Of a stretch of DNA of 64,000 nt, positions 1,591 through 44,095 are shown piece by piece. How positions within the stretch are numbered: position 1 is the stretch's first letter; every line of letters begins with the position of its first letter. The DNA comes from Candidatus Fimihabitans intestinipullorum (GTDB lineage: Bacteria > Bacillota_I > Bacilli_A > RF39 > UBA660). The notes under the pieces were generated by a model, which saw only the letters and a list, made by a program, of their open reading frames with translations, did no database searches and was not told the origin of the DNA. The stretch is taken from contig DVML01000022.1 in the NCBI GenBank assembly GCA_018714965.1, positions 1,065 to 65,064 of the forward strand, given 5' to 3'. Position numbers and translations under genes: made by a program.

Positions 1591-1603
1591 AAAGAAATAA
1601 TAA

Positions 1604-2800
1604 ATTTGGATTTTCTATGTTCCTGCACATGGGGGAAGTGATCCGGGAGCAAGTGGAAATGGAATTATAGAAAAAGATTTAAATTTAAAAATATCTCAGT
1701 ATATGTATGAACGATTTAAAGAGTTGGGAATTCCTGTTTATATTACAAGAGATGAAGATGAAACTTTAAGTCCAACAGAACGCGTGAAACGTATTTTAAA
1801 TGCATTTGGAAACAGAGAAGATGTTATTGTAATTTCTAATCATATTAATGCAGATGCAACGACTGCAGATGGAGCAGAGGTTATATATGCGCTTCGAAAT
1901 AATGATGTATTATCAAGTTTGATTTTAGAAGAATTGCAAAAAGCAGGACAAAATATAAGATATGCATACCAGAGAAAACTGCCAAGTAATCAATCAAAAG
2001 ATTATTACTTTATACATAGAGATACCGGAGTGACACAGCCAGTTATTGTAGAATATGGTTTTTTAGATAGTAACAAAGATGATCCAGAACAGCTTAAAAA
2101 CAACTATAAATTATATGCAGAAGCAGTGGTTACTGCTGTGTTACGCTACTTGGGAATAGAAGGTCAACAACCAGGAACATATACAGTGAAATCTGGAGAT
2201 AGTCTTTGGAGCATAGCGAAGCGATATAATGTTACAGTTGATGCATTAAAAAGTGCGAATAAGTTAACGACTAATGTTTTATCGATTGGTCAAGTTTTAA
2301 AGATACCCGGACCTGTTGTAGATGACAATAACGGTATCGAAACTGAGATTATATATGTGGTTGCTCCTGGTGATAGTTTATGGGCGATTGCAAGACAATA
2401 CGGTGTCACAGTAGATCAATTAAAACAAGCTAATAATCTAGTGAATGATTTATTGAATGTCGGAATGGAATTAAAAATACCAACGAAAAGTACAATTCCG
2501 CCAACAAATGAGATGGAAGTTATCTATACTGTAAAACCTGGAGATTCTCTTTATCGTATTGCACTTGAAAATAATATCACAGTAGATCAATTGAAAAAAT
2601 ATAATAATTTAACAAGTGATATGTTATTGATAGGACAGAAATTGCGTATTCCGTCTGCGACCCAAACAGTATATGTCGTGAAGGCAGGGGACAGTCTTTG
2701 GAGTATAGCAAATCGGTATGGAACGACAATAGATGCACTGCGAAGAAAAAACAATTTAACAACAGACATATTATCGATTGGGCAAAGATTATATATATAA
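1604..2800 (+). pseudogene. N-acetylmuramoyl-L-alanine amidase (Amidase_3 type) with 4 LysM repeats, lacking a start codon and RBS (split or 5'-truncated gene)
   Basis: The frame of ORF 1703..2800 stays open back to 1604 and reads IWIFYVPAHGGSDPGASGNGIIEKDLNLKISQYMYERF. This already includes the HGG metal-binding motif, which lies about 13 aa from the N-terminus of the intact paralogue at 5218. In-frame stops at 1598 and 1601; no ATG/GTG/TTG start and no Shine-Dalgarno upstream. The recombinase stop codon is about 13 nt away. Confidence 0.7.
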
Positions 2801-2866
2801 AATATCTGCACGAAATTATCGTGTGGATTTTTATATTATTATGCTATAATGTGATAGAGGTGACTT

Positions 2867-3868
2867 ATGATTTATCCAAAGTTTTTACAACCAGGATCAC
2901 AAATATTAGTGATATCTCCAAGTGATGGTAATTCAGAACCACTAGCGGAATCAAGAATTACTATGGCAGCAAATAAATTTGAAAAAAGAGGGTATTCTGT
3001 ATTATTGGGAAAAGATATTTTCCACAGTGAAAAGAGTAGAAGTGCAGATGCATTGAAACGGGTAGAGGAAATTCATAATGGAATATCTGATTCTAATATA
3101 CAATTATTGATTGCAAGTGCTGGTGGAGAATATGCTATGGAAATATTACCATACTTAGATTTTTCGATTGTGCGTAAGAATCCAACATGGATTCAAGGCT
3201 TTTCGGACGTGACGATACTAACTTATACAGTTACAACTGTATGTGATATTGCAACTTTATACGCTTCAAATTTTAAGGACTTTAGCATGGAGAAACTTCA
3301 TCCAACGTTAATAAATAATTTAGAAATTTTAAATGGGAGAATCGTAGAACAATCGTCAGCAAAAATGTATCAGGATCAATATATCGAATATGTGGATGGC
3401 AATGAAGGATATCGATTAACTAGACCTGTTAAGTGGAAAGGAAATCCTTGTCATATGGAAGGAAGATTGCTTGGTGGATGTATTGATGTTTTATCTAATA
3501 TAGTGGGTACACCGTATGATCATACAAAGGAATTTATTGAAAAGTATCAAGAAGATGGAATGCTTTGGTATTTAGAAAATTGTGAGTTAAGTGAAGCAGA
3601 GTTTACGAGAGTATTATGGAAAATGCGCGAATGTGGTTGGTTTGAACATACTAATGGGATTTTGTTTGGAAGGTCTACTGTAGATGAAACATTATGGGAA
3701 CAATCTCCAAGTGAAATTGTTGATGAACAATTAGGAAAATATCATATTCCATGTTTATTTGATATTGATTTAGGACATAAACCACCTAGGATGACATTTA
3801 TCAATGGAGCATATGGGATTGTTGACTGGGATGGAAAAGAAGGAAAGTTTCAACAAATTTTAAAATAA
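2867..3868 (+). CDS. LD-carboxypeptidase (peptidase S66, LdcA/MccF-like)
   Basis: 333 aa; N-terminal LQPGSQILVISPS, GFSDVT nucleophile motif, C-terminal DIDLGHKPP. Confidence 0.7.
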   Translation: MIYPKFLQPGSQILVISPSDGNSEPLAESRITMAANKFEKRGYSVLLGKDIFHSEKSRSADALKRVEEIHNGISDSNIQLLIASAGGEYAMEILPYLDFSIVRKNPTWIQGFSDVTILTYTVTTVCDIATLYASNFKDFSMEKLHPTLINNLEILNGRIVEQSSAKMYQDQYIEYVDGNEGYRLTRPVKWKGNPCHMEGRLLGGCIDVLSNIVGTPYDHTKEFIEKYQEDGMLWYLENCELSEAEFTRVLWKMRECGWFEHTNGILFGRSTVDETLWEQSPSEIVDEQLGKYHIPCLFDIDLGHKPPRMTFINGAYGIVDWDGKEGKFQQILK

Positions 3869-3971
3869 AAAAAGATAGCCTTGATTATAATACCTTTAAA
3901 GTTCACACTAAATAAAAAGAACTAAAATATGGTAAAATTTATTTAGAAAGAACTTTGGAGGTATTTTTTTC

Positions 3972-4238
3972 ATGGGAAAACATAAGAAATGGACTTTAGA
4001 ACAAAAAATCAAAATAGTAAAAGAATTTAAAAATGGAACAACCATTTCATATTTAAACAATAAGTATGGAATATCTGGTATGGGTACAATAAGCAGATGG
4101 AATCAAGAATATGATAAAGGAATTCTAGCAAAAGATAATCGTGGTAAGAAAAAATATAATCAAGAATTGGAGGATATAGATATATTAAAAAAATCCTATG
4201 CTCTTCTGATGGAAATCCGCTCTCAGCAACACAAATAG
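3972..4238 (+). CDS. IS3 transposase OrfA (HTH)
   Basis: 88 aa with an HTH and leucine-zipper-like C-terminus; RBS GGAGG at 3957-3961. Confidence 0.8.
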   Translation: MGKHKKWTLEQKIKIVKEFKNGTTISYLNNKYGISGMGTISRWNQEYDKGILAKDNRGKKKYNQELEDIDILKKSYALLMEIRSQQHK

Positions 4239-5092
4239 AAAAATATCAAATTATCGATAGATTAAAATTTGAGTATCCTGTAGTTAGAATATGCAGAGTT
4301 TTAAATGTAAATAGACGAAGTTATTATAAGTGGTGTAAAATAGGAAAACCACTTGCTAATAACTATAAACAAGAAATTGCTGATGTGATATCAGAAGAGC
4401 ATAAAAATGTCAAAGGAATTTATGGAACAATCAGATTAAAAAAACATATAGAGAATAAATCAAATATCGTATTAAATCATAAATTAATACGAAGATATAA
4501 ACATATTTTAGGTTTAGAGACAGTAAAACGTACGAAAAAAGGATTATCAGTTTCTAAAGCAAAAGAAAAGAACCTTATAAACAAGGCTCCATACTTAGTT
4601 GAATGTAACTTTAATTCAGATGTACCCAATCAAAAATTTTCATCTGATGTAAGCTATATAAAATGTAAAGACGGAACTCTTTACTTGTCAGCTATTAAAG
4701 ATTACTTCAACACTGAAATTGTATCATTTTCTACGTCGAATTACAATAACATAGATTTAATAAAAGAAAGTTATAAAAATGTAAGGCCAGAAAAAGGTAC
4801 CATAATTAATACCGATCAAGGAGCGGTTTATTTTGCTTATGAATATGTAGAATTAGCGAATAAAATGGAATTTACTAGAAGTATGTCTCATCGTGGACGT
4901 TGTTGGGAAAATTGTCCGATTGAAAATTGGTTTATGCAATTAAAACATGAATGGCTTTGTCAATTTGATAAACTTACGAGAAAAGAAGCAGAAAAAGAAA
5001 TCAAAAAATACGTTCATTGGTATAACAACGAACGTATTCAAAAGAAACTTGGATATTTATCACCTGTACAATACAGACTTAAATATTCATAA
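4160..5092 (+). CDS. IS3 transposase OrfB frame (DDE/rve integrase core), expressed as an OrfAB fusion by -1 frameshift
   Basis: The -1 frame is open from 4160. TTA AAA AAA TCC slippery heptamer at 4187-4193 in the orfA frame. rve-type motifs (FSSDVSYI, NTDQGAVY, WYNNERIQKKLGYLSP). Confidence 0.8.
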   Translation, partial: SRIGGYRYIKKILCSSDGNPLSATQIEKYQIIDRLKFEYPVVRICRVLNVNRRSYYKWCKIGKPLANNYKQEIADVISEEHKNVKGIYGTIRLKKHIENKSNIVLNHKLIRRYKHILGLETVKRTKKGLSVSKAKEKNLINKAPYLVECNFNSDVPNQKFSSDVSYIKCKDGTLYLSAIKDYFNTEIVSFSTSNYNNIDLIKESYKNVRPEKGTIINTDQGAVYFAYEYVELANKMEFTRSMSHRGRCWENCPIENWFMQLKHEWLCQFDKLTRKEAEKEIKKYVHWYNNERIQKKLGYLSPVQYRLKYS

Positions 5093-5217
5093 AACAAATA
5101 TTTTTATTTAGTGTGTACTTGACAGGTACTAGTATCCTTGGCTATCTTTTTTTATTAATATTGCTACTATGGTAGCAAAGTAGGCATACTTACATATTTT
5201 AATGTAGGGGTGAATTT

Positions 5218-6429
5218 ATGATGGAACGAGCAATTACTGGGGTTGTAATAGATGCGGCACATGGGGGAGAAGATGCTGGCAATACGGGGAACGGAATTGT
5301 AGAGAAGGATCTAGCTCTGCAAATTTCTCAGTATATGTATCGACGTTTACAAGAGTTGGGTGTTCCTGTTACGCTAGTTAGGAATTCAGATGAAACGATT
5401 TCTAATGAAGAGCGTATTCGCCGTATTTTAGCTCCTTATGGAGAAGGAAGTAATGTGATTGTAATTTCTAATCACGTGAATGCGGGAGGTGCGGACGGTG
5501 CTGAAGTTGTATATGCTCTTCGAAATAATTCTACACTAGCAAATCAAATCGCACAAGAATTAGAATTGGCAGGACAAAATGTAATCAAAGTATATCAAAG
5601 AAGATTGCCAAGTGATACATCGAAAGATTACTATTTTATTCACCGAGATACAGGGAATACACAACCGATTATTATCGAATATGGATATGTAGATAGCAGT
5701 CAGGACGATCCAGAACAGTTAAAGAATAATTATGATCGCTATGCGGAAGCGGTGGTAAAGGCGATTGCAGCGTATATTGGAAAATCATATGTCCCAGAAT
5801 TAGATGAAAATAGCTATGTTGTAAAATCTGGCGATAGTTTGTGGAGTATTGCAAATCGTTATGGTCTTACAGTTGATCAGTTGAAGTCTGCCAATGGGTT
5901 AACGAGCAATTTACTACAAGTAGGGCAAGTGTTAACGATTCCTAAGAAAAGTACAGAATCACCGTCAGAATCTAATAATAATATTTATATTGTAAAATCC
6001 GGAGATAGTCTTTGGAGTATAGCAAATCGATATGGAACGACAGTATCAATTCTAAAGCAATTGAATGGTTTAACTTCCGATAATTTAAGTATAGGTCAAA
6101 AATTATATCTTCCTAATCAGGGAAGTGAGGAGAAGCCTGAAAATGTAACTTATGTTGTAAAAAGTGGAGATAGCTTATATACGATTGCGAGAAAGTATAA
6201 TACGACAGTAAATGATTTAATGAACTTGAATCAACTTAAAACGAGTTTACTGAGTATAGGGCAAGTTCTAAAAATCCCAAATAGCTCAGCTGGGACTGTC
6301 TACGTTGTGAAATCAGGAGATAGTCTTTGGAATATTGCAAATCGATATGGAACGACAGTCGATGCAATCAAACAAAAAAATGGATTAACGGGTAATAATT
6401 TAAGTATCGGTCAAGTATTATATATTTAA
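5218..6429 (+). CDS. N-acetylmuramoyl-L-alanine amidase (Amidase_3) with 4 C-terminal LysM repeats, intact
   Basis: 403 aa; VIDAAHGGEDAGN, EKDLAL, ISNHVNAG; four repeats of the YxVKSGDSLWSIAxRYG...IGQxL type. Confidence 0.85.
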   Translation: MMERAITGVVIDAAHGGEDAGNTGNGIVEKDLALQISQYMYRRLQELGVPVTLVRNSDETISNEERIRRILAPYGEGSNVIVISNHVNAGGADGAEVVYALRNNSTLANQIAQELELAGQNVIKVYQRRLPSDTSKDYYFIHRDTGNTQPIIIEYGYVDSSQDDPEQLKNNYDRYAEAVVKAIAAYIGKSYVPELDENSYVVKSGDSLWSIANRYGLTVDQLKSANGLTSNLLQVGQVLTIPKKSTESPSESNNNIYIVKSGDSLWSIANRYGTTVSILKQLNGLTSDNLSIGQKLYLPNQGSEEKPENVTYVVKSGDSLYTIARKYNTTVNDLMNLNQLKTSLLSIGQVLKIPNSSAGTVYVVKSGDSLWNIANRYGTTVDAIKQKNGLTGNNLSIGQVLYI

Positions 6430-6453: not shown

Positions 6454-6697
6454 AATGAAGTTCTTGACATTCTCCTTTATCTGGCTGATAAAAACAATGG
6501 TTTTTATATCTTCCAGCTAGTGTTTGATCCCACCATGTAGATGTACAATTGGTTCCTCTAGCAGGTGCATAAAACCATAAAGCGTTGGTAGCTGGATGAT
6601 AGTATTCTCCTCTAATTACTCGATCTGCTAAAGCTCTTTCTGTCGATGTTGGATTACTGAAAAAAAGAGGGCTATCTACCCCGGAGAAGCCACCAGG
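6452..6697 (-). pseudogene. cwlJ: 3' fragment of a cwlJ-type cell wall hydrolase (Hydrolase_2 family), separated from its 5' part by the prophage
   Basis: The minus-strand frame reads PGGFSGVDSPLFFSNPTSTERALADRVIRGEYYHPATNALWFYAPARGTNCTSTWWDQTLAGRYKNHCFYQPDKGECQELH*. It has no start, and a stop (TAA) lies immediately upstream at 6698-6700. Confidence 0.8.
6690..6694. other. att core, left junction
   Basis: ccccggagaagCCACCaggttattccaagttggtac: host sequence to the left, phage sequence to the right. Confidence 0.6.
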
Positions 6698-6715: not shown

Positions 6716-8083
6716 CTACATTAAAAAGTTAATCTCGAATTCATTTTTACCTTTAATCTCAATCGATTCTATAATACTTCCCCACAGTTCTCTTTTTTCT
6801 TGGTTGTTTAATTTATCATAAGTTTTGAAAATATCACTTGATAAAAATGTTTGAATCTTGTTTAAATTAGTTTTAGTTTTATCGATGCTCTTATATTTTT
6901 TATTTTCTTCTAATATTTTTTTCAGAGAACTATATTGTTCATTGTAGTAATCTATATCAATCATATCATTTAAATATAATTCACTCAATTTGTTCATTTT
7001 TCTTTTAACTGAATCTATATTTATCTTTTTTTCATTTTGATTAACTTCATCAATTTTTAGCTTTTTTTGTTCGAACTGAGTAAAAATATTTTTAATTACA
7101 AACTCTTCTATTCTTTTTTCTGGTACGTTATATTTATTAGAACAATAATTGCTTTCATTTGCTCGTTTGCAACGATAGTAATGCATATTGTTTTTGCTTG
7201 CATATCGCCCTGACATTTTTCTTCCGCATTGTCCACATTTGATTAGTCTAGAAAAAATATACGGATCGGTATTTTTGTGTTTGATTTCTTTGATATTGTT
7301 TTTAAATAGCTCTTGAACGCGATAAAACACGTCCTCGTCAACGATTTGTGGGCAGAAGTCCTCTAATATCTCTCCGGTAGATTTTCTCACATAGCGACCG
7401 ATATAAGCAGTATTTTTTAGATATATTTTAATAGAATCGTAACTCTTCTGTGAACAATTTTGTTGAAACCAACGAACAGTCTTTGATAGATTGTTAGTCA
7501 ATAAATATTGATCAAACAATCCTTGAATATGTGGAGCAGTTTCAGGATCTATGACAATTTTTTTATCGTCAGAAATTTTGTACCCGTAAGGTACTTTTCC
7601 ACTACATACTGTTTTTTGAACGCGAAACTTGTGATCAAATACAGATACGATACGTTCACCCGTTCTCTTTGCTTCCATTTGCCCTAGCGATAGTGACATG
7701 TTAAGCCAAAATTCTCCAGATGCAGTTGTAGTATCATAATCTTCCCAGATTGTTTTCCAGGCAACATTATTTTTCTTCAAAATTTCAATGACCTTATAGA
7801 AATCGGCAATATTCCTAAACCATCTATCTAACTTCGTCATTAAAATTAGATCTATATGTCCGGTTTCTAAGTCTTTTAACATTCGTTGAAGATTAGTTCG
7901 TTTTAATTTTTGGCCAGATTCTCCACCATCGATATAGGTACCATATATTTTATATTTATTTTTCTTTGCGTAATCAGTCAGAGCTTTCTCTTGCGCCTCT
8001 AAAGAATCCCCCTCTTTTGCCTGACGATCCGTTGAAACACGAATATAGAGCGCAACTGTTTTGATTCTGTCTTTTTGTGTCAT
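6716..8083 (-). CDS. Large serine recombinase (phage integrase)
   Basis: 455 aa; VALYIRVSTDRQ catalytic Ser motif, TKLDRWFRN, recombinase domain, zinc ribbon CGQCGRKM...YYRC, coiled-coil tail. The stop codon lies 21 nt from the att core. Confidence 0.9.
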   Translation of the reverse strand: MTQKDRIKTVALYIRVSTDRQAKEGDSLEAQEKALTDYAKKNKYKIYGTYIDGGESGQKLKRTNLQRMLKDLETGHIDLILMTKLDRWFRNIADFYKVIEILKKNNVAWKTIWEDYDTTTASGEFWLNMSLSLGQMEAKRTGERIVSVFDHKFRVQKTVCSGKVPYGYKISDDKKIVIDPETAPHIQGLFDQYLLTNNLSKTVRWFQQNCSQKSYDSIKIYLKNTAYIGRYVRKSTGEILEDFCPQIVDEDVFYRVQELFKNNIKEIKHKNTDPYIFSRLIKCGQCGRKMSGRYASKNNMHYYRCKRANESNYCSNKYNVPEKRIEEFVIKNIFTQFEQKKLKIDEVNQNEKKINIDSVKRKMNKLSELYLNDMIDIDYYNEQYSSLKKILEENKKYKSIDKTKTNLNKIQTFLSSDIFKTYDKLNNQEKRELWGSIIESIEIKGKNEFEINFLM

Positions 8084-8279: not shown

Positions 8280-9287
8280 CTACGCGGACTTAGGACTTTT
8301 AATTTCAACCCAATTATCAGGAAAATTCATAATTTTTAATATATCCTGAATATTTAGTGTATGTAAATGTTTTTCCAAACTTTTTATTCGTCCATATATT
8401 TTATTATACATGGTTATAAAATCATCGTGATCTAACAGATTTTTTAATGATATTATTAGTGCAAATAAATCATTTTTTCCTTGTATATACATTTCTCCTT
8501 GACGCTTAATATTTAATTTTTTATGGTAGATATTATCTTTTATATAAATGTATTTGGGAACTTTAGTATTGTAAACTCTTTCATCATGTGCACATAGATT
8601 TCTATAAAAATTCATAATTTTTATAAATTGCATTAGCTCATCTTCTCTACAATTTAAATGTTTGGCAACAAGATTTCTTTCTTTCTGATTCATTAATTCG
8701 AAAAATTTACTAACGTCTCCGAAGGAGAATATGTTAATTAAGACCCATAATGGAACAAATCCATATGTTAACATATAGTGTTTAATATATTCTTTAGTAG
8801 TTATAGATGTTGAGGTTTTTTGCTGGATAATTATAATTAACTCTTGAATATGTTTAATTTGATTTAATTTAATTTTTTCACTTACTTTTACTGAATTGAA
8901 ATTTTCAAAACAATCAATTTTTAAATAATTATCGTTCCCGTGATGCATTGAAAAATAGTAGGAAATTAAAGTTTTAAGGGTATTTTCAATTTTTAAAATA
9001 TATTTCAAAAAGATATCTCTTAATGCACGATCAAAATCATATAACGCAAAAATTTCATCAAAAGTTGTTCCGTCCATATAATTAGTCTCATCTTTTAAAA
9101 AGGGTTCTTTATATCCGTTTATTACGTTGTAATAGTTATTGGTCAATAATTTTTTCTTTGTGTCTTCTGTATCTGTAATTATTACACCTCTAGATCTTAG
9201 TAAATTTATTTGCTCATCTAATGTTTTAAATTGCTTCATAATATAATAAAAAGTCTTCGGTCCCATGGGATACCGAAGCTCATTCAC
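8280..9287 (-). CDS. Abi_2 family (AbiD/AbiF-like) abortive infection protein
   Basis: 335 aa; N-terminal FKTLDEQINLLRSRGVII...LLTNNYYNVINGY, typical of the Abi-like family; CAHDERVYN motif. Confidence 0.7.
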   Translation of the reverse strand: MNELRYPMGPKTFYYIMKQFKTLDEQINLLRSRGVIITDTEDTKKKLLTNNYYNVINGYKEPFLKDETNYMDGTTFDEIFALYDFDRALRDIFLKYILKIENTLKTLISYYFSMHHGNDNYLKIDCFENFNSVKVSEKIKLNQIKHIQELIIIIQQKTSTSITTKEYIKHYMLTYGFVPLWVLINIFSFGDVSKFFELMNQKERNLVAKHLNCREDELMQFIKIMNFYRNLCAHDERVYNTKVPKYIYIKDNIYHKKLNIKRQGEMYIQGKNDLFALIISLKNLLDHDDFITMYNKIYGRIKSLEKHLHTLNIQDILKIMNFPDNWVEIKSPKSA

Positions 9288-10951: not shown

Positions 10952-10999
10952 AAAAAAGCAAAAAAACAACACACGTTGTGAAAAAATGCACATTTATTG

Positions 11000-11028
11000 T
11001 TGACAAGTGCATATATGCACGATATAAT
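11000..11028 (+). promoter_or_regulatory. Early rightward promoter with an embedded operator palindrome
   Basis: TTGACA (11000-11005), 17 nt, TATAAT (11023-11028). The spacer holds the perfect palindrome GTGCATATATGCAC (11007-11020), and an additional TGCAC half-site lies at 10987-10991. Confidence 0.75.
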
Positions 11029-11051
11029 AAGTGTAGATAGGAGGTAACATA

Positions 11052-13975: not shown

Positions 13976-14014
13976 TTCACTAACAATATAACAAAAGTGA
14001 ATTAAAAAGTCAAG

Positions 14015-14206
14015 TTTAGCAGGTTCAGAGTGAACTATCTAATGAATTTTAGTAGGTTCAGAGTGAACCAACTAAGAAAATTTAGTAGGTCCACAGTGAC
14101 CCATACAGTAGGTCCACAGTGAACCCTCTCTATAATGTATTTAACTATACTAAATTAACTATAAATATAAATAATTATATTAGTAGGTTCAGAGTGAACC
14201 AACTAA
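14015..14206 (+). repeat. Iteron-like array: five copies of an approximately 18-bp motif
   Basis: AG(T/C)AGGTTCAGAGTGAAC x3 (about 14018, 14051, 14182) and AGTAGGTCCACAGTGA(A)CC x2 (14084, 14107). Each carries the internal palindrome GTTCA..TGAAC or GTCCA..TGA(A)C. The array lies directly upstream of the 14220 gene. Confidence 0.8.
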
Positions 14207-14219
14207 CTAAGGAGAAAGT

Positions 14220-14573
14220 ATGAATGGGAAATTTGTAATAATTTTAAAAGAACTTGTTACTGATCCAAAAATTGATGCTTACGAATACAGAATTTTAAGT
14301 TATTTGATTTCCTGTTCTAAGGATGGAGAGTGTTTCCCAAGCAGGGGAGATATTAGCGATAAAACAGGAATTCCGATAAGCACAGTAAAGAGGAAATTGA
14401 ATTCGTTAATTTCTAAAAAATATATTAGCAAAAGTAATCGAACTATCGGATCGGGCAAAATAACTTCAAATATTTACACGATCAACAAAAAATATTTGGT
14501 TGTTCGAGAGGCAAGGTACGAAAACGAGAAACAAGAAGAACTATTCGATTACGATTGGATTGGAGATGAGTAA
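14220..14573 (+). CDS. Winged-helix/HTH protein, putative replication-initiation or origin-binding protein
   Basis: 117 aa; FPSRGDISDKTGIPISTVKRKLNSLISKKYI HTH; position at the head of the replication module, next to the iterons. Confidence 0.45.
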   Translation: MNGKFVIILKELVTDPKIDAYEYRILSYLISCSKDGECFPSRGDISDKTGIPISTVKRKLNSLISKKYISKSNRTIGSGKITSNIYTINKKYLVVREARYENEKQEELFDYDWIGDE

Positions 14574-40175: not shown

Positions 40176-41045
40176 ATGAAATATAGACAAATGTTGGTTG
40201 ATGAATCAAAATGGAATATTAAGTGTCCGTATAAAATGGAACCGGAATATATTACAGTTCATAACACCGCAAATGATGCATCAGCTGAGAACGAAGTTAA
40301 ATATATGATTTCAAATAATAACGAAGTATCATTTCATTATGCCGTTGACGACAAAGAGGCGGTGCAAGGAATTCTAACAGACAGGAATACTTGGAATGCA
40401 GGCGACGGAGCAAACGGAACTGGTAATAGAAAATCTATTGCGGTTGAAATTTGTTATTCTAAATCAGGTGGGGATCGTTTTATTCGAGCTGAAAAGAACG
40501 CAGCAATTGTTGTTGCAGATCTTTTAAAAGGATGGGATTTAGGGCTTGACAGAGTTCGTAAACATCAAGATTGGAATGGAAAATATTGTCCGCATCGTAC
40601 ACTCGACATGGGCTGGGAAAGATTCATGGATATGGTTAAATTAGCGTATAACGGTTCAAATTCGAATGAAAACGGTTCATCCAATACAAATACACCAACA
40701 GTACAAAAAAACATTGAACAAGTGGCGTATGACGTTATTAACGGTAAATATGGAAACAATCCTGAACGTCGTCAAAAATTAGAAGCAGAAGGATATGACT
40801 ATAATAAAGTGCAGACAAAAGTCAATGAAATTCTGGATGGACAAAACAGTATGACCAAAAAATTGGCAGTTGGGAGTAAAGTAAAAATCAATTCAAGTGC
40901 TTCTACATATGCGACGGGAGAGAAAATTCCAAATATTTACAAAAATAAAACTTATACCGTTCAGCAACTTCATAAAAACGGTGATAAAGTTTTAATAAAA
41001 GAGCTTTATTCTTGGGTTTTCATTAAAGATATTACAGTCTTATAA
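40176..41045 (+). CDS. Endolysin: N-acetylmuramoyl-L-alanine amidase (Amidase_2/PGRP) with a CW_7 repeat and an SH3-like C-terminus
   Basis: ITVHNTAN, SFHYAVDD, SIAVEICY, HQDWNGKYCPHR; CW_7-like VAYDVINGKYGNNPERRQKLEAEGYDYNKVQTKVNEIL. Confidence 0.85.
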   Translation: MKYRQMLVDESKWNIKCPYKMEPEYITVHNTANDASAENEVKYMISNNNEVSFHYAVDDKEAVQGILTDRNTWNAGDGANGTGNRKSIAVEICYSKSGGDRFIRAEKNAAIVVADLLKGWDLGLDRVRKHQDWNGKYCPHRTLDMGWERFMDMVKLAYNGSNSNENGSSNTNTPTVQKNIEQVAYDVINGKYGNNPERRQKLEAEGYDYNKVQTKVNEILDGQNSMTKKLAVGSKVKINSSASTYATGEKIPNIYKNKTYTVQQLHKNGDKVLIKELYSWVFIKDITVL

Positions 41046-41157: not shown

Positions 41158-41628
41158 TTATTTACTGAAATTTGTTTCATCACAAATAAGTTTTAATTCA
41201 TCTAACTCAAATGCGTTATTTTGGACAGTTTCATCAGAAAATTCGCAAGCGTCATATTGGAATAATCCTTTAAAATCACTATAAATTTCATTATCTTTTT
41301 TGTCGGTTTTTAATTTAATAGAATTATAAAACTTCTCCGCCTCATTTTTGTTGTCAAAAACTTTTGATTTTTTTGTGTCTTTTAAGATTTCTATAAACCC
41401 TTGATCGTTAAAATGTTGAGTCACTTTCACAACCAAAAATTTTCTCATATAAATTCCTCTCTCTAAAATTTTTTTGGCTTCTAAAACCAACTCTCTTTTA
41501 TTCATATTGTTTTTTGCTAAAAATTCGTTAATTTGATCTAATTCTTCGGGTTTTAATTTTGCTTTGAATTGTTTGTAATTATCTTTGTCGAACTGATTTT
41601 TGTATTCTCTTAATTCTTTTTTATTCAT
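41158..41628 (-). CDS. RHH-like N-terminal domain protein (156 aa), accessory cassette 1
   Basis: N-terminal REYKNQFDKDNYKQFKAKLKPEELDQINEFLAKNNMNKRELVLEAKKILE is paralogous to the 41874 ORF and fits a strand-helix-helix pattern; no Shine-Dalgarno. Confidence 0.45.
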   Translation of the reverse strand: MNKKELREYKNQFDKDNYKQFKAKLKPEELDQINEFLAKNNMNKRELVLEAKKILERGIYMRKFLVVKVTQHFNDQGFIEILKDTKKSKVFDNKNEAEKFYNSIKLKTDKKDNEIYSDFKGLFQYDACEFSDETVQNNAFELDELKLICDETNFSK

Positions 41629-41637
41629 ATATTAAAA

Positions 41638-41665
41638 TTGACAATTTCTATAATTATGATAAAAT
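41638..41665 (+). promoter_or_regulatory. Antisense promoter, cassette 1
   Basis: TTGACA-16 nt-TAAAAT with a TGn extended -10; fires towards the small ORF on the opposite strand. Confidence 0.55.
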
Positions 41666-41671
41666 AATTAG

Positions 41672-41709
41672 TGAGAAGGGGGTTAACCCCATCTCGTAAT
41701 CACTTTTTT
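41672..41709 (+). ncRNA. Predicted short antisense RNA, cassette 1
   Basis: Predicted start about 7 nt after the -10. GTGAgaagGGGGttaaCCCCatctcgtaaTCAC followed by T6. Complementary to the 3' end of the 31-codon ORF. A second possible terminator lies near 41745-41755. Confidence 0.35.
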
Positions 41710-41778
41710 GGTTTTCTTTCCACAGACTTGAAATCCAAGAGTGATTTTTATTTTCCATATTTTTATAGAAATTTCCAT
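41683..41778 (-). CDS. 31-aa basic peptide, cassette 1
   Basis: RBS GGTGGG 7 nt before the ATG; MEISIKIWKIKITLGFQVCGKKTKKVITRWG; paralogue at 42111. Confidence 0.4.
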   Translation of the reverse strand: MEISIKIWKIKITLGFQVCGKKTKKVITRWG

Positions 41779-41821
41779 CTTTAATCCCACCTTTCTAGTA
41801 ATCTTTCTTGATTACATACTA

Positions 41822-41850
41822 ATTATATCATATCGTGTACACGATATCAA
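41822..41850 (-). promoter_or_regulatory. Sense promoter of cassette 1 with an operator palindrome
   Basis: Minus strand TTGATA-17 nt-TATAAT; the spacer holds ATATCGTGTACACGATAT. Confidence 0.6.
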
Positions 41851-41873
41851 CTGTTTTTATGGAGATAGGAGTT

Positions 41874-42059
41874 TTATTTTTTATATTTTTCTTTTAATAT
41901 TTTATATGCTTCACGAATAAATTGAGTATTGTTCATATTGATTTGATCCAAAAATGAATCTATTTCTTCTTTTTCTTCTACCGGAAGTTTTGCGGTGAAT
42001 TGCCTGTAATTTATCTTCTTGTATTCACGAATATATTTCTTTTGATCAAACTTTTCCAT
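41874..42059 (-). CDS. RHH-like protein (61 aa), accessory cassette 2
   Basis: MEKFDQKKYIREYKKINYRQFTAKLPVEEKEEIDSFLDQINMNNTQFIREAYKILKEKYKK. Start chosen by analogy to cassette 1 (the track ORF extends to 42077); no Shine-Dalgarno. Confidence 0.45.
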   Translation of the reverse strand: MEKFDQKKYIREYKKINYRQFTAKLPVEEKEEIDSFLDQINMNNTQFIREAYKILKEKYKK

Positions 42060-42063
42060 AATT

Positions 42064-42092
42064 TTGACAATCATCAATAAATTGGTTATAAT
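42064..42092 (+). promoter_or_regulatory. Antisense promoter, cassette 2
   Basis: Perfect TTGACA-17 nt-TATAAT. Confidence 0.6.
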
Positions 42093-42098
42093 GGTAAT

Positions 42099-42191
42099 AG
42101 AAGGAGTGGCTTATCGCCAACTCTTTCTGATTACTTTAGTAGTTTTAGTAGATTTTCTTTCTCGTAGAATTGCTAAAACTACTTTTATTTT
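42099..42191 (+). ncRNA. Predicted antisense RNA (about 90 nt), cassette 2
   Basis: Ends in an 11-bp perfect stem, AGTAGTTTTAG (42138) with CTAAAACTACT (42173), followed by TTTATTTT. Complementary to most of the 34-codon ORF. Confidence 0.4.
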
Positions 42192-42215
42192 ACCAATTTT
42201 TATTGATAATTCCAT
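42111..42215 (-). CDS. 34-aa basic peptide, cassette 2
   Basis: RBS GAGAGGTG 6 nt before the ATG; MELSIKIGKIKVVLAILRERKSTKTTKVIRKSWR. Confidence 0.4.
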   Translation of the reverse strand: MELSIKIGKIKVVLAILRERKSTKTTKVIRKSWR

Positions 42216-42239
42216 GTCTTCACCTCTCTTTCTATATAC

Positions 42240-42268
42240 ATTATATCACATGGTGTAGACCATGTCAA
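42240..42268 (-). promoter_or_regulatory. Sense promoter of cassette 2 with an operator palindrome
   Basis: Minus strand, perfect TTGACA-17 nt-TATAAT; the spacer holds CATGGTctacACCATG. Confidence 0.6.
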
Positions 42269-42482
42269 GAGATTTGTTCATTTTTCTTTAAATTTGTAAA
42301 ATTTATGTTAAAATAATTGAGGTTACTTTTTTGGTATCCTTATTCTTTTATTCTCATCATAAAACTCGCAAAGATTATATTGAAATAATTTTTTATATAA
42401 CTATAAATTTAATTTTTAATAAATAGATATTATGTATAAATACAAGTTAACATAATTAAAATTATATATAACATATAATAAT

Positions 42483-42510
42483 TTGACATATATTAAAAAA
42501 AATGTATAAT
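42483..42510 (+). promoter_or_regulatory. Consensus promoter inside an ORF-free region that is visibly very AT-rich
   Basis: TTGACA-16 nt-TATAAT; reads towards and antisense to the 51-aa peptide gene. Confidence 0.5.
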
Positions 42511-42516
42511 ATTTCT

Positions 42517-42754
42517 CATATTATATAATTTGTTTACATTTATCAATTAAAAGTTGTTGCAAAAATAATATATAAATTATATAATAATATTGAATGATTA
42601 ACATATATTATCATTTATTATCATTTCACTTTAGTATATTATAGTTATTTTTAACTATAATAAAAAAGAGATACACCCAATATAGCCTGTTAGGTGTCAT
42701 CTCCACAATTTGTGGTAGGCACCATAACTCTTAGTTGAGTTAGGTGTCTTTTTT
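42517..42754 (+). ncRNA. Predicted antisense/non-coding transcript overlapping the 3' end of the 51-aa ORF
   Basis: No plausible ORF. Plus-strand hairpin GGCACC...GGTGTC followed by T6 at 42718-42754, which would terminate it inside the peptide gene. Confidence 0.3.
42662..42703 (-). terminator. Terminator of the 51-aa peptide gene
   Basis: Minus strand GAGATGACACC, 14-nt loop, GGGTGTATCTC followed by T6; overlaps the stop codon. Confidence 0.65.
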
Positions 42755-42852
42755 GTCATTAGTTGTTTAAAAACTTTTCTAGTAATGCCAAGATTACTAT
42801 CAAAGCTACTAAAAACTCCATTGGTCTCCTTATATATAATAAGTTGATTCAT
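42697..42852 (-). CDS. 51-aa hydrophilic peptide of unknown function
   Basis: Very strong RBS AAGGAGGTG 6 nt before the ATG; MNQLIIYKETNGVFSSFDSNLGITRKVFKQLMTKKTPNSTKSYGAYHKLWR; own promoter and terminator. Confidence 0.5.
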   Translation of the reverse strand: MNQLIIYKETNGVFSSFDSNLGITRKVFKQLMTKKTPNSTKSYGAYHKLWR

Positions 42853-42932
42853 GTGGACCACCTCCTTACATATCTTGATTGAAAAGTTATGTGGAGGCAA
42901 CACCTAACTATCGGATGTATCTCATAACTAGA

Positions 42933-42977
42933 ATTATATAATTTTTTTCGACAATAATCAATATATGTGATCCACAT
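42933..42977 (-). promoter_or_regulatory. Promoter plus upstream palindrome of the 51-aa peptide gene
   Basis: Minus strand TTGATT-17 nt-TATAAT (42961 to 42933); palindrome ATGTGgatCACAT at 42965-42977. Confidence 0.55.
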
Positions 42978-43011
42978 TTTGCAAAAAAATAGAGTGATAT
43001 AAAGCACCGTG

Positions 43012-43707
43012 CTATAAGCTAACCGGTATATCGAGTTCTTTTCCGTTATTTAAAACAATCTTCCCCTTTGATTTCATTTTGATGTACTTTCTGTTTATGA
43101 TTAACGATCTACCATATGGCTCAAAATTACTATTTAATTGTTTATTTATATCCTTTATCGATTGATAGATTGGTGCTTTTCCATGAGCGATATGTACTGA
43201 GCAATATTTTTGATTCTTTTCTTTTTCTATATATAATATTTCATCCAATTGTAATGTATATGTAATCCCTTTCGATTTGAATTGTAATACACTATTTTCT
43301 TGAATAATATTTAACGCTTTTGAGAGAGAACGATATAGGTTCTCTTTTAATCTGTCGAACTTGTCAATATACGTTAAGCACATAATATCATCTCCGATAA
43401 TAGTGCTTTTATACTCTTCGTGGCCAGTCAAAAAAATGATTATGCTGTTGTAGTCATAATCACGTATATCGCGTGCGAGATCTATTCCAGAATCATATCC
43501 AACATGAATATCCAAAAGGAATATTTTTCTTTTATTATTTTTTATTAAATCGTATATCTTGGAGTTAACTGATGTGAATTTATATATTTTATAATCAATA
43601 TCATTATGCATCATGTATTTATCAATAAGATCACACTCTTTGTTTAAAAAATATAGTTCATCTTCCACTACAACTAACTCAACAACCGATGAGCTTATAT
43701 TTTCCAT
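43012..43707 (-). CDS. Orphan LytTR-family response regulator (receiver plus LytTR DNA-binding domain)
   Basis: 231 aa. Receiver motifs VVVEDE, FLLDIHV (phospho-acceptor Asp), IIFLTGH, YIDK. C-terminal LytTR pattern LDEILYIEKEKNQKYCSVHIA...FEPYGRSLIINRKYI. Confidence 0.75.
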   Translation of the reverse strand: MENISSSVVELVVVEDELYFLNKECDLIDKYMMHNDIDYKIYKFTSVNSKIYDLIKNNKRKIFLLDIHVGYDSGIDLARDIRDYDYNSIIIFLTGHEEYKSTIIGDDIMCLTYIDKFDRLKENLYRSLSKALNIIQENSVLQFKSKGITYTLQLDEILYIEKEKNQKYCSVHIAHGKAPIYQSIKDINKQLNSNFEPYGRSLIINRKYIKMKSKGKIVLNNGKELDIPVSL

Positions 43708-43729
43708 TATTTTCCAACTCCCTATTTAC

Positions 43730-43766
43730 ATTATAACATTTTGGAGTTTGGTTTTCCACTGGAAAA
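43730..43766 (-). promoter_or_regulatory. Extended -10 (aTGtTATAAT) and operator palindrome upstream of the LytTR gene
   Basis: ATTATAACAT at 43730-43739; TTTTCCAcTGGAAAA at 43752-43766. Confidence 0.5.
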
Positions 43767-43800
43767 AATTCCCAATTTATAAGTGTACTAATTAAGAATA

Positions 43801-43992
43801 TCCACCGGGATTTTGATAAGCGACTTCGGATATCGTACGAACGTTTTTAAATGTTAAGCAATTAGAAATGCCTCTATTTACAACGACGTTACCAACCATT
43901 AGCATACCAAGATCGCCTTCACCCACTGCTTCTGCACGCATTAATCTCGCGAGTAAATCGCGTTCTTTGCTAGTTGCTTTTATAATTGCCAC
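43801..43992 (-). pseudogene. cwlJ: 5' fragment of the cwlJ-type cell wall hydrolase
   Basis: GTG at 43992, 6 nt after AGGTG. (M)AIIKATSKERDLLARLMRAEAVGEGDLGMLMVGNVVVNRGISNCLTFKNVRTISEVAYQNPGG, then the phage-derived YS* (stop at 43792). Collinear with the N-terminus of B. subtilis CwlJ as I recall it. Confidence 0.8.
43802..43806. other. att core, right junction
   Basis: gtactaattaagaatatCCACCgggattttgataagc: phage sequence to the left, host sequence to the right. Confidence 0.6.
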
Positions 43993-44095
43993 ATATATCA
44001 CCTAGTTTATTATATGGGAAAAAGATGGATGGTTTCGTAAATTTGACAAAAACTTTGTATTTGCATAGAATAATGGTACTAATGGAGATGGTATT

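What the first reader, a model, noticed from the sequence alone, without database searches (positions are those of the whole stretch)
42483..43766. An orphan LytTR response regulator followed by a strongly signalled 51-aa peptide gene, with an antisense promoter and 5'/3' complementary 9-mers
The prophage carries a receiver plus LytTR regulator. The acidic pocket, the phospho-acceptor Asp in FLLDIHV, and the T and K positions are all present, yet no histidine kinase is anywhere in the window. Directly downstream is an independent unit. It has a TTGATT-17-TATAAT promoter with the upstream palindrome ATGTGgatCACAT, an AAGGAGGTG RBS, a 51-codon ORF (MNQLIIYKETNGVFSSFDSNLGITRKVFKQLMTKKTPNSTKSYGAYHKLWR) and a clean terminator. 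The mRNA 5' UTR contains GUUAGGUGU (from 42908-42900). Its exact complement, ACACCUAAC, occurs twice near the 3' end (42747-42739 and 42697-42689), which allows long-range 5'-3' pairing. A consensus promoter on the other strand (42483-42510) sits in an ORF-free stretch of about 390 bp that is visibly very AT-rich. It would read antisense into the last approximately 60 nt of the peptide gene, where a plus-strand hairpin and T-run (42718-42754) occur. LytTR regulators normally belong to peptide quorum-sensing circuits (Agr, Com and Pln types), so a phage-borne orphan copy next to a regulated mini-protein is unusual. I could not assign the peptide to any family.
Basis: partly seen in the sequence, partly recalled or inferred. 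Interest (0 to 1): 0.65.

Follow-up and report, generated by a model that had tools for sequence, protein, structure and literature searches.

The report
Prophage orphan AgrA regulator plus antisense-gated mini-gene
At the right end of a prophage sit an intact quorum-sensing-type response regulator with no kinase and, next to it, a tiny gene whose RNA is built like a type I toxin-antitoxin cassette; each part resembles known systems, and nothing shows that the two work together.

Summary
The 231-aa protein is a full-length AgrA/ComE-family response regulator with the phospho-acceptor residues intact. It is under purifying selection (pN/pS 0.08-0.18). It lies about 95 bp inside attR of a 37-kb serine-integrase prophage that splits a CwlJ/SleB-like hydrolase gene. 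No kinase was found in the window or in related prophage ends. Its nearest relatives (32-38% identity) sit in chromosomal agrA-agrC/agrD-agrB loci.

The 51-codon unit is not simply "strongly signalled". Its Shine-Dalgarno is predicted paired (P 0.92-0.99) to an upstream anti-SD. The three 9-mers belong to a helix of about 33 bp joining the transcript's 5' and 3' ends (fold z = -7.4). A convergent 12/12 consensus promoter would give an antisense RNA of about 240 nt with its own terminator. This is the architecture of a type I toxin-antitoxin mRNA.

The peptide, however, is basic and not hydrophobic, has no homologues outside this prophage lineage, has no confident fold, and evolves almost neutrally (pN/pS 0.6-0.75; one lineage is frameshifted near the end). 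The antisense RNA body is nearly invariant.

I found no evidence linking the regulator to the peptide beyond adjacency, and the peptide is not an Agr/Com-type signal. Interest is moderate.

The parts
43012..43707 (-). Orphan AgrA/ComE-family response regulator (receiver + LytTR), 231 aa
   Evidence: Pfam LytTR 6.7e-11. The best NCBIfam model is quorum_RR_AgrA, aligned over the full length at E 2e-10 but far below the equivalog cut-off. A family profile hits ComE 4cbv at 1e-20 and AgrA 3bs1 at 7e-11. D16, D66, T/S93 and K116 are conserved. pN/pS is 0.08-0.18.
43730..43758 (-). Promoter-like site for the regulator (TGGAAA-17-TATAAT with TG), just inside attR
   Evidence: No terminator separates it from the truncated host hydrolase ORF upstream (sequence), so read-through from the host promoter is possible (inference).
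42933..42961 (-). Promoter of the small-ORF unit (TTGATT-17-TATAAT)
   Evidence: There are 1-2 substitutions among 7 haplotypes in 42961-42927, the promoter plus the bases down to the predicted start.
42890..42923 (-). 5' arm of the long-range 5'-3' helix; includes GTTAGGTGT (42900-42908) and the anti-SD CCTCCAC (42893-42898 pairs the SD)
   Evidence: Inverted repeat I13. MFE and consensus folds. Duplex energy -47.7 kcal/mol and about 25 expected 5'-3' pairs in the ensemble.
42859..42867 (-). Shine-Dalgarno AAGGAGGTG, predicted sequestered
   Evidence: The GGAGGU bases are paired with P 0.92-0.99 in the full-length RNA and are paired in the MFE fold of every nascent length tested, 80-235 nt.
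42697..42852 (-). 51-codon ORF (basic, non-hydrophobic peptide)
   Evidence: GRAVY -0.62 and net charge +7. No Pfam, PHROG, NCBIfam or PADLOC match. AF2 pLDDT 53.5. pN/pS 0.6-0.75. Codon-frame score +4.9 against -16 and -58 in the other frames.
42662..42707 (-). 3' arm of the long-range helix, which is also the intrinsic terminator (hairpin 42704-42668, T-run 42667-42662); includes ACACCTAAC at 42689-42697
42483..42510 (+). Consensus antisense promoter TTGACA-16-TATAAT
   Evidence: 12/12 match. Both hexamers are invariant in 7 haplotypes.
42517..42760 (+). Predicted antisense RNA of about 240 nt. Its 3' part of about 100 nt overlaps the last 19 codons and the terminator of the peptide mRNA. 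Its own terminator is the hairpin 42718-42748 plus T6 at 42749-42754 (uses GTTAGGTGTC at 42739-42748).
   Evidence: Fold -59.1 kcal/mol, z = -5.6. The non-overlapping body 42517-42661 has 0-1 substitutions in 145 nt, against 6-21 in the 145-nt ORF core.
42300..42655 (.). AT-rich (13.5% GC), ORF-free spacer that carries the antisense RNA body and further promoter-like sites
   Evidence: Homology among related prophages extends to about 42390-42407.
43802..43806 (-). attR crossover core GGTGG (attL copy at 6690-6694); the prophage spans about 6695-43801
   Evidence: Joining the two hydrolase fragments across GGTGG gives a 145-aa protein that matches Hydrolase_2 over 1-100/100 at 61.3 bits. The serine integrase lies at 6716-8083.

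Best explanation
There are two adjacent but separate accessory modules in the variable cargo region between the endolysin and attR of a serine-integrase prophage.

(1) An orphan AgrA-family response regulator. It is an intact, selected protein. The likely mechanism (inferred) is that a host AgrC-type kinase phosphorylates it, so that it ties phage or host promoters to the host's quorum signal. Its targets are unknown.

(2) A small-ORF cassette controlled by a cis-antisense RNA, with the architecture of a type I toxin-antitoxin locus. A near-consensus promoter makes an mRNA of about 265 nt. Its Shine-Dalgarno is closed by an upstream anti-SD as soon as it is transcribed. Its two ends then zip into a helix of about 33 bp that includes the terminator. 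A convergent, highly conserved RNA of about 240 nt pairs perfectly with the last 100 nt or so of the mRNA. This pairing would trigger decay or keep the mRNA closed.

The RNA anatomy is shown by prediction. Transcription, translation, any toxicity of the 51-aa basic peptide, and any cross-talk with the regulator are all inferred or unknown.
For: Location. The prophage boundaries, and the position of both genes inside the element, follow from the split hydrolase gene.

Regulator.
- It aligns over its full length with the AgrA family, and the catalytic residues are conserved.
- It is under purifying selection.
- Relatives at 32-38% identity sit next to AgrC (HATPase_c_5) and to AgrB/AgrD.
- No kinase was found in the window or in the right ends of related prophages.
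- Phages with related integrases (53-57% identity) carry other cargo at the same place.

Cassette.
- Both promoters are present.
- The mRNA folds at -87.5 kcal/mol against -53.9 +/- 4.5 for shuffles, z = -7.4.
- The SD is paired with P 0.92-0.99 in the full-length RNA and is paired in every nascent fold tested; the 5'-3' duplex energy is -47.7 kcal/mol.
- The same helix is the consensus structure in 6 haplotypes. Substitutions fall in the loop between anti-SD and SD, not in the stems.
- The antisense RNA fold has z = -5.6 and ends in its own terminator.
- The antisense body has 0-1 substitutions in 145 nt, against 6-21 in the ORF core. The binomial probability against the regulator's synonymous rate is 1e-7 or less.
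- These are the descriptors used to define type I toxin mRNAs (PMC8594479).
- Type I modules are common in prophages of low-GC Gram-positives (PMC7699646).
Against: - The peptide has no hydrophobic or transmembrane segment, unlike almost all type I toxins.
- It has no homologue outside this lineage and no family match.
- Rfam has no match on either strand.
- Amino-acid constraint is weak, and one lineage is frameshifted.
- The helices are almost invariant, so there is no covariation support.
- Mosaic recombination could inflate the apparent conservation of the antisense region.
- There are no expression data.
- No binding sites for the regulator were found.
- Whether the host has an Agr kinase is unknown.
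Confidence: 0.5

Rival explanations
1. The regulator and the mini-protein form one functional unit. The regulator would sense host quorum state and control the adjacent small gene, which would act as an effector. The analogy is the phage VP882 receptor VqmA-Phi, which activates the small antirepressor gene qtip and so sets prophage induction.
For: The two genes are adjacent and co-oriented in all 20 related loci. No terminator lies between them. The peptide region is the most variable part while the regulator is conserved, as expected of a specificity or effector element. Phage-borne quorum-sensing receptor homologues are known (PMC11945551).
Against: All 20 loci belong to one prophage lineage at one integration site, so the co-occurrence carries no information. 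The peptide promoter is near consensus with 17-nt spacing, unlike activator-dependent AgrA promoters (own knowledge). The 50 bp upstream hold no direct repeats with a period of about 21 bp, and the palindrome there is not conserved. The CI-type operator GTGCATATATGCAC at the immunity region is unrelated to that palindrome.
Confidence: 0.13
2. The ORF is incidental, or its product does not matter. The unit would be a sense/antisense pair of structured non-coding RNAs, with the conserved antisense RNA as the functional product (for example a phage sRNA acting in trans on host or phage mRNAs).
For: pN/pS is 0.6-0.75, no better than the off-frame controls. One lineage has a 3' frameshift. The AF2 model has low confidence. 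The antisense body is nearly invariant whereas the ORF is the most variable segment. The SD is almost always occluded.
Against: A perfect SD sits 7 nt before an invariant ATG. The frame is open in all 7 haplotypes, and the N-terminal indel is in frame (3 nt). About 1.4% of 51-codon frames would stay open by chance at this composition (my calculation). The codon-frame score favours the annotated frame, at +4.9 against -16 and -58. A dedicated anti-SD makes sense only if translation has to be prevented. No trans target of at least 11 nt stands out in the window.
Confidence: 0.2
3. The 51-aa basic protein is the recombination directionality factor (excisionase) of the large serine integrase. RNA structure and antisense RNA would keep it tightly off in the lysogen.
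For: Small basic RDFs are known for serine integrases of Firmicutes phages (own knowledge: TP901-1 Orf7, SPbeta SprB). The gene lies next to attR and, in the circular phage, next to the integrase. Tight repression would suit an RDF.
Against: It has no similarity to any excisionase or RDF family in Pfam or PHROGs. The integrase is 95% identical in the IMG/VR relative whereas the peptide is 76-77% identical. Phages with 53-57% identical integrases have no analogous small gene at that position. Its promoter looks constitutive rather than part of an early lytic operon.
Confidence: 0.07
4. The inverted repeats act at the DNA level, either as ends of a miniature transposable element or as sites of an invertible switch. 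They would not be RNA pairing partners.
For: Arms of about 34-40 bp flank a segment of about 180 bp. Serine recombinases are encoded in the window.
Against: The arms coincide with the predicted transcript start and with the terminator T-run. There is a single copy per locus in 21 loci and in only one IMG/VR contig. All 20 loci have the same orientation. The promoter lies outside the segment, so inversion would not make an on/off switch.
Confidence: 0.03

Closest known systems
AgrA / ComE family response regulators of agr-type quorum-sensing loci (agrBDCA)
   Same: It has the same two-domain architecture (receiver + LytTR) and the same length. The acidic pocket, phospho-acceptor Asp, T/S and K are conserved. 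The best curated model is AgrA, and a family profile matches the ComE and AgrA structures. The closest relatives are true agrA genes.
   Different: It is only 32-38% identical to them and far below the AgrA equivalog cut-off (40.6 against 400 bits). It has no AgrC, AgrB or AgrD beside it. It lies on a prophage. No AgrA-box repeats were found.
Phage-borne quorum-sensing components: C. difficile phage phiCDHM1 agrB/agrD/agrC without agrA, LytTR proteins in Pseudomonas phages, VP882 VqmA-Phi (PMC11945551, PMC4124054)
   Same: In both cases a temperate phage carries only part of a host-type quorum-sensing pathway, which implies dependence on host components.
   Different: Here the part carried is the response regulator alone, the reverse of phiCDHM1. 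No ligand receptor is present. PHROG 8810 (E 1.9e-22) shows that such proteins already occur in phage collections, with unknown function.
Type I toxin-antitoxin loci with convergent, 3'-overlapping antitoxin RNA (B. subtilis txpA/RatA, bsrG/SR4, yonT/SR6; C. difficile prophage CD0977.1/RCd11) and with 5'-3' fold-back (hok/sok, aapA1/IsoA1)
   Same: The shared features are a small ORF under 60 codons with its own strong promoter, an SD closed by an anti-SD, pairing of the mRNA 5' and 3' ends, a convergent sRNA with its own promoter and terminator that overlaps the mRNA 3' end, and a prophage location.
   Different: The product is hydrophilic and basic with no membrane segment. It is poorly constrained. 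There is no sequence or Rfam relation to any known family. Toxicity is untested.
Lambda cII / OOP antisense RNA (own knowledge)
   Same: A short antisense RNA from a strong promoter overlaps the 3' end of a small phage regulatory gene.
   Different: There is no sequence relation. The product here is much smaller, and the mRNA additionally has an anti-SD and end-to-end pairing.

Membership tests
Agr-type quorum-sensing system | Response regulator with receiver + LytTR domains of the AgrA/ComE family | tested here: met
Agr-type quorum-sensing system | Intact phospho-acceptor site (acidic pair, Asp, T/S, Lys) | tested here: met
   D16, D66, T/S93 and K116 are invariant or nearly invariant in alignments A2 and A5. 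The Asp aligns with the ComE phospho-acceptor region.
Agr-type quorum-sensing system | Cognate AgrC-type histidine kinase (HATPase_c_5) encoded beside the regulator | tested here: not met
   None was found in the window or in related prophage ends. It is present next to relatives.
Agr-type quorum-sensing system | AgrB processing protein and AgrD precursor peptide (hydrophobic N-terminus, Cys ring, acidic tail) | tested here: not met
   There is no AgrB. The 51-aa peptide lacks Cys, is basic, and is unlike the AgrD sequences of relatives' loci.
Agr-type quorum-sensing system | Paired 9-bp direct repeats about 12 bp apart upstream of target promoters | tested here: inconclusive
   The generic LytTR consensus is not enriched (57 observed against 81 in shuffles). 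The only strong repeats with a period of about 23 bp are replication-type iterons at 14010-14205. The motif of this regulator is unknown.
Type I toxin-antitoxin | Small ORF (<60 codons) with its own promoter and SD | tested here: met
Type I toxin-antitoxin | SD sequestered by an anti-SD, and/or 5'-3' long-distance interaction in the toxin mRNA | tested here: met
   This is prediction only. SD pairing has P 0.92-0.99; the 33-bp end helix has z = -7.4. There is no covariation, because the arms are invariant.
Type I toxin-antitoxin | Cis-encoded antisense RNA with its own promoter and terminator | tested here: met
   A 12/12 promoter, a terminator hairpin with T6, and a fold with z = -5.6. Actual expression cannot be tested here.
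Type I toxin-antitoxin | Toxin is a small hydrophobic, membrane-active peptide (usual but not universal) | tested here: not met
   GRAVY -0.62; the best 15-residue window scores 0.28.
Type I toxin-antitoxin | The ORF is toxic when expressed and the RNA neutralises it | not testable with these tools
   This needs inducible expression in the host or in a surrogate.
Type I toxin-antitoxin | Homology to a described toxin or antitoxin family | tested here: not met
   Rfam gives no match at E <= 1. Pfam, PHROGs, NCBIfam and PADLOC give none.
LytTR regulatory systems (HdrRM/BrsRM type) | LytTR regulator without a receiver domain, paired with a membrane-protein inhibitor | tested here: not met
   The protein has a full receiver domain. 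The neighbouring peptide has no membrane segment.
Secreted signalling pro-peptides (ComC, Phr, AimP) | N-terminal signal or double-glycine leader and a short mature C-terminal peptide | tested here: not met
   The sequence has no hydrophobic leader and no GG motif.

The most novel reading that the evidence does not exclude
The prophage may listen to its host's Agr quorum signal through its own kinase-less AgrA homologue and use that input to decide its fate. The neighbouring RNA-gated mini-protein would be the executing effector, either a new non-membrane type I toxin or an antirepressor. If so, this would be a phage decision switch made from a hijacked two-component output plus an antisense-locked effector, in a prophage that also interrupts a spore cortex hydrolase gene.
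Probability: 0.1. Interest if true: 0.8.

Novelty: new variant of a known kind. Interest (0 to 1): 0.45.

Why it matters
If the regulator really receives phosphate from a host AgrC, this would be a clean case of a Gram-positive gut phage wiring itself into host peptide quorum sensing from the output side. That would complement phages known to carry agrBDC without agrA. If the 51-aa basic peptide is toxic, it would extend type I toxin-antitoxin systems to a soluble, fast-evolving toxin class. The near-invariant 145-nt AT-rich antisense body would then be an unusually constrained phage sRNA. If neither holds, the locus is ordinary prophage cargo. It would still be a useful worked example showing that a 'perfect' RBS can be fully masked by RNA structure.

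Tried and rejected
- Homologue searches for the peptide found only the same prophage lineage. These covered the 5.8-billion-protein index, phage GenBank by tblastn, IMG/VR and JGI metagenomes.
- The 65-aa 'read-through' variant P0001 is an artefact of gene calling with code 4 on identical DNA.
- AlphaFold of the peptide gave no usable model (pLDDT 53.5), so no fold search was run.
The three closest relatives have no viral-contig homologues.
- Cultured-phage hits to the regulator are weak (23-29% identity) and lie in unannotated fragments.
- Searches for LytTR boxes, for a shared operator with the CI/Cro region and for trans targets of the antisense RNA found nothing.
- The transposable-element or invertible-switch reading was rejected on copy number and orientation.
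- A single-sequence PDB search found nothing. A profile search was needed.
- L011 looked at first like an empty site. It is a truncated prophage remnant that retains an endolysin C-terminal fragment.
Full report
SETTING. The window is low-GC DNA (about 30%). It contains a prophage of about 37 kb. At the left end is a large serine recombinase at 6716-8083(-) (Resolvase + Recombinase + Zn_ribbon_recom; best NCBIfam model XisF). At the right end is an endolysin at 40176-41045(+) (Amidase_2 + CW_7).

A 69-aa fragment at 43792-44001(-) weakly matches the N-terminus of Pfam Hydrolase_2. The minus strand at about 6455-6690 encodes the missing C-terminus. Joining the two across a shared GGTGG core gives a 145-aa protein that matches Hydrolase_2 end to end (1-100/100, 61.3 bits). 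The prophage therefore spans about 6695-43801 and splits a CwlJ/SleB-type cell-wall hydrolase gene. The regulator and the 51-codon ORF lie inside the element, within 1.1 kb of attR. The only named source is a MAG labelled 'uncultured Tenericutes bacterium'. The flanks carry spore-coat genes (CotZ), so the host is a spore former.

CHECK OF THE OBSERVATION. All the listed features are present at the stated coordinates.
- The three exact ACACCTAAC copies are the only ones in 64 kb.
- The plus-strand promoter at 42483-42510 is a perfect 12/12 match.
- The spacer 42300-42655 has 13.5% GC.
- The palindrome upstream of the peptide promoter is real but is not kept in related prophages. It is not unusual at one mismatch.
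- No histidine kinase was found in any ORF scanned or pre-annotated.

THE REGULATOR. Pfam finds the LytTR domain (6.7e-11) but only a partial, sub-threshold receiver match. An exhaustive HMMER search of 1.84 billion representatives found 4131 relatives. The best non-self hits are 33-38% identical and align over residues 9-227.

In alignments with those relatives D16, D66, the T/S after beta4 and K116 are invariant or nearly so, so the receiver is not degenerate. The best curated model is AgrA. A family profile matches full-length ComE (4cbv, 1e-20) and the AgrA LytTR domain (3bs1, 7e-11).

Between prophage variants the gene shows pN/pS of 0.08-0.18, which marks a protein in use. Three relatives at 32-38% identity all sit in canonical loci: agrA followed by an AgrC-type kinase (HATPase_c_5), with a 40-aa AgrD and an AgrB alongside. 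The AgrD sequences are textbook examples. Some of these contigs come from the same sample series as the prophage contigs, but I could not show that they belong to the same organism.

A PHROG family (8810, unknown function) matches at 1.9e-22, so phage-borne copies of this architecture already exist in collections. Cultured phages give only weak hits. Phages with 53-57% identical integrases carry unrelated cargo between integrase and endolysin. The regulator is therefore lineage-specific cargo (a 'moron').

THE SMALL-ORF UNIT. Homologues of the peptide exist only in this prophage lineage, always directly after the regulator. Because it is one lineage at one integration site, that co-occurrence carries no weight. 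The 65-aa 'variant' is an artefact of code-4 gene calling.

Seven DNA haplotypes were aligned. The promoter, SD and ATG are kept in all of them (the SD has one base change in one haplotype). The 9-mers and the antisense promoter hexamers are identical in all of them.

The ORF, in contrast, is the most variable segment. It has 6-21 substitutions in 145 nt, almost all changing the amino acid, plus an in-frame 3-nt indel. One lineage (16 contigs) has a 1-nt deletion that rewrites the last seven residues. pN/pS is 0.6-0.75, no better than the other two frames.

The frame nevertheless looks coding. The codon-frame log-odds are +4.9 against -16 and -58. That is low for a real gene (2.8th percentile) but above every off-frame window. 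The peptide is basic (+7) and hydrophilic (GRAVY -0.62), with no membrane segment. It has no family match and no confident AlphaFold model.

RNA ANATOMY. Folding the predicted transcript (42927-42655) gives -87.5 kcal/mol against -53.9 +/- 4.5 for shuffles (z = -7.4).

Two features dominate.
- First, the SD bases GGAGGU (42865-42860) pair with an anti-SD at 42898-42893. The probability is 0.92-0.99 in the full-length RNA, and the SD is paired in the fold of every nascent length from 80 nt on. The substitutions in the 5' UTR fall in the loop between anti-SD and SD.
Positions 42923-42890 pair with 42707-42668, giving about 33 bp at -47.7 kcal/mol. The arms begin a few bases after the predicted start and end at the terminator T-run. 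They therefore join the two ends of the transcript and include both arms of the terminator hairpin.

The consensus fold of six haplotypes keeps this helix. The arms hardly vary, so there is no covariation evidence.

On the other strand, the perfect promoter would start an RNA near 42517. That RNA folds with z = -5.6 and ends in a 12-bp hairpin plus T6 at 42718-42754. The hairpin uses the second copy of the repeat, which explains the direct repeat GTTAGGTGTC with 50-bp spacing. The RNA overlaps the last 100 nt or so of the mRNA.

The non-overlapping 145-nt body of this RNA shows 0-1 substitutions among haplotypes whose regulator genes differ at 10-31% of synonymous sites (binomial P of 1e-7 or less). 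Mosaic recombination in this region weakens that statistic. Rfam has no match.

INTERPRETATION. Four traits together are the descriptors used to recognise type I toxin mRNAs (PMC8594479):
- an SD closed by an anti-SD;
- 5'-3' end pairing;
- a terminator inside the pairing region;
- a convergent sRNA overlapping the 3' end.

Such modules are frequent in prophages of low-GC Gram-positives (PMC7699646). The cassette works like one at the RNA level. I do not file it as a member, for three reasons: the product lacks the hydrophobic segment, it has no homology to any known family, and its toxicity is untested.

The alternatives are an RNA-only function, an antirepressor-like effector controlled by the regulator, and an RDF. 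They are scored in the rivals section. I found nothing that couples the regulator to the cassette:
- no LytTR-type repeats;
- a promoter that needs no activator;
- a palindrome that is not conserved.

The peptide is not an Agr, Com or Phr type signal.

The regulator itself is best read as a kinase-less AgrA homologue that depends on a host kinase. This is the mirror image of phiCDHM1, which carries agrB, agrC and agrD but no agrA (PMC11945551). That step is inference.

VERDICT. Both modules are variants of known kinds. Interest is moderate (0.45). The combined reading of a quorum-sensing-driven effector switch remains possible but unlikely (about 0.1).

Noticed in passing
window 6690-6694 and 43802-43806; fragments ~6455-6690(-) and 43792-44001(-); integrase 6716-8083(-): The prophage interrupts a CwlJ/SleB-like cell-wall hydrolase gene (Hydrolase_2) at a GGTGG core. 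Its large serine recombinase is closest to XisF, the excisase of a developmental element. This resembles the 'intervening elements' that split sporulation genes and excise during sporulation (skin, SPbeta; own knowledge). The upstream region of the hydrolase gene has a CATATAATA motif that could be a mother-cell sigma -10 element; this is not established.
   Followed up: partly
window 41625-42290 (-): There are two paralogous units (75% identical). Each has a consensus-like promoter with a palindromic spacer (CATGGTctacACCATG), an SD and a small basic ORF. The ORFs are 34 aa (MELSIKIGKIKVVLAILRERKSTKTTKVIRKSWR) and 31 aa (MEISIKIWKIKITLGFQVCGKKTKKVITRWG). Each unit also has a convergent plus-strand consensus promoter (42064-42092, 12/12; 41638-41665, 11/12) reading antisense into the small ORF. 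Paralogous proteins without a Pfam match follow (67 and 156 aa). The sense RNAs fold with z = -4.4 and -4.7. Three antisense-faced small ORFs therefore sit in a row next to the finding.
   Followed up: partly
window 14010-14205 (+): Five iterons, TAGTAGGT(T/C)CA(G/C)AGTGAAC, two of them 23 bp apart, lie upstream of a 117-aa gene (14220-14573). This is probably the phage replication origin or initiator operator. It was the only strong hit of the periodic direct-repeat scan, and it is not LytTR-like.
   Followed up: partly
window 8280-9287 (-): An AbiD/Abi_2 abortive-infection gene lies in the lysogeny module, between the integrase and an M78/HTH repressor pair (PADLOC AbiD 7e-61).
   Followed up: no
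window 10960-11030 (+): The CI/Cro-type divergent region holds the palindromic operator GTGCATATATGCAC inside a TTGACA...TATAAT promoter. Two repressor-like paralogues (131 and 154 aa) share an identical C-terminal half.
   Followed up: no
window 4-6429 (+): The left flank of the prophage is itself mobile-looking. It holds a second large serine recombinase (4-1590), an IS with an rve integrase (4385-5092), and two paralogous Amidase_3 + 4xLysM genes (1703-2800, 5218-6429).
   Followed up: no
L011 2243-3020: One metagenomic contig keeps the hydrolase N-fragment, the regulator, the peptide cassette and unit A. It then jumps to a C-terminal endolysin fragment and unrelated host genes (iPGM and others). 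This is either a deleted prophage remnant that retained the cargo end or a chimeric assembly.
   Followed up: partly
L015, L017, L018 (protein P0001): Some ENA gene calls read the peptide as 65 aa because TGA was translated as Trp (code 4, probably because of the 'Tenericutes' label). The window's long ORFs show that the organism uses code 11.
   Followed up: yes
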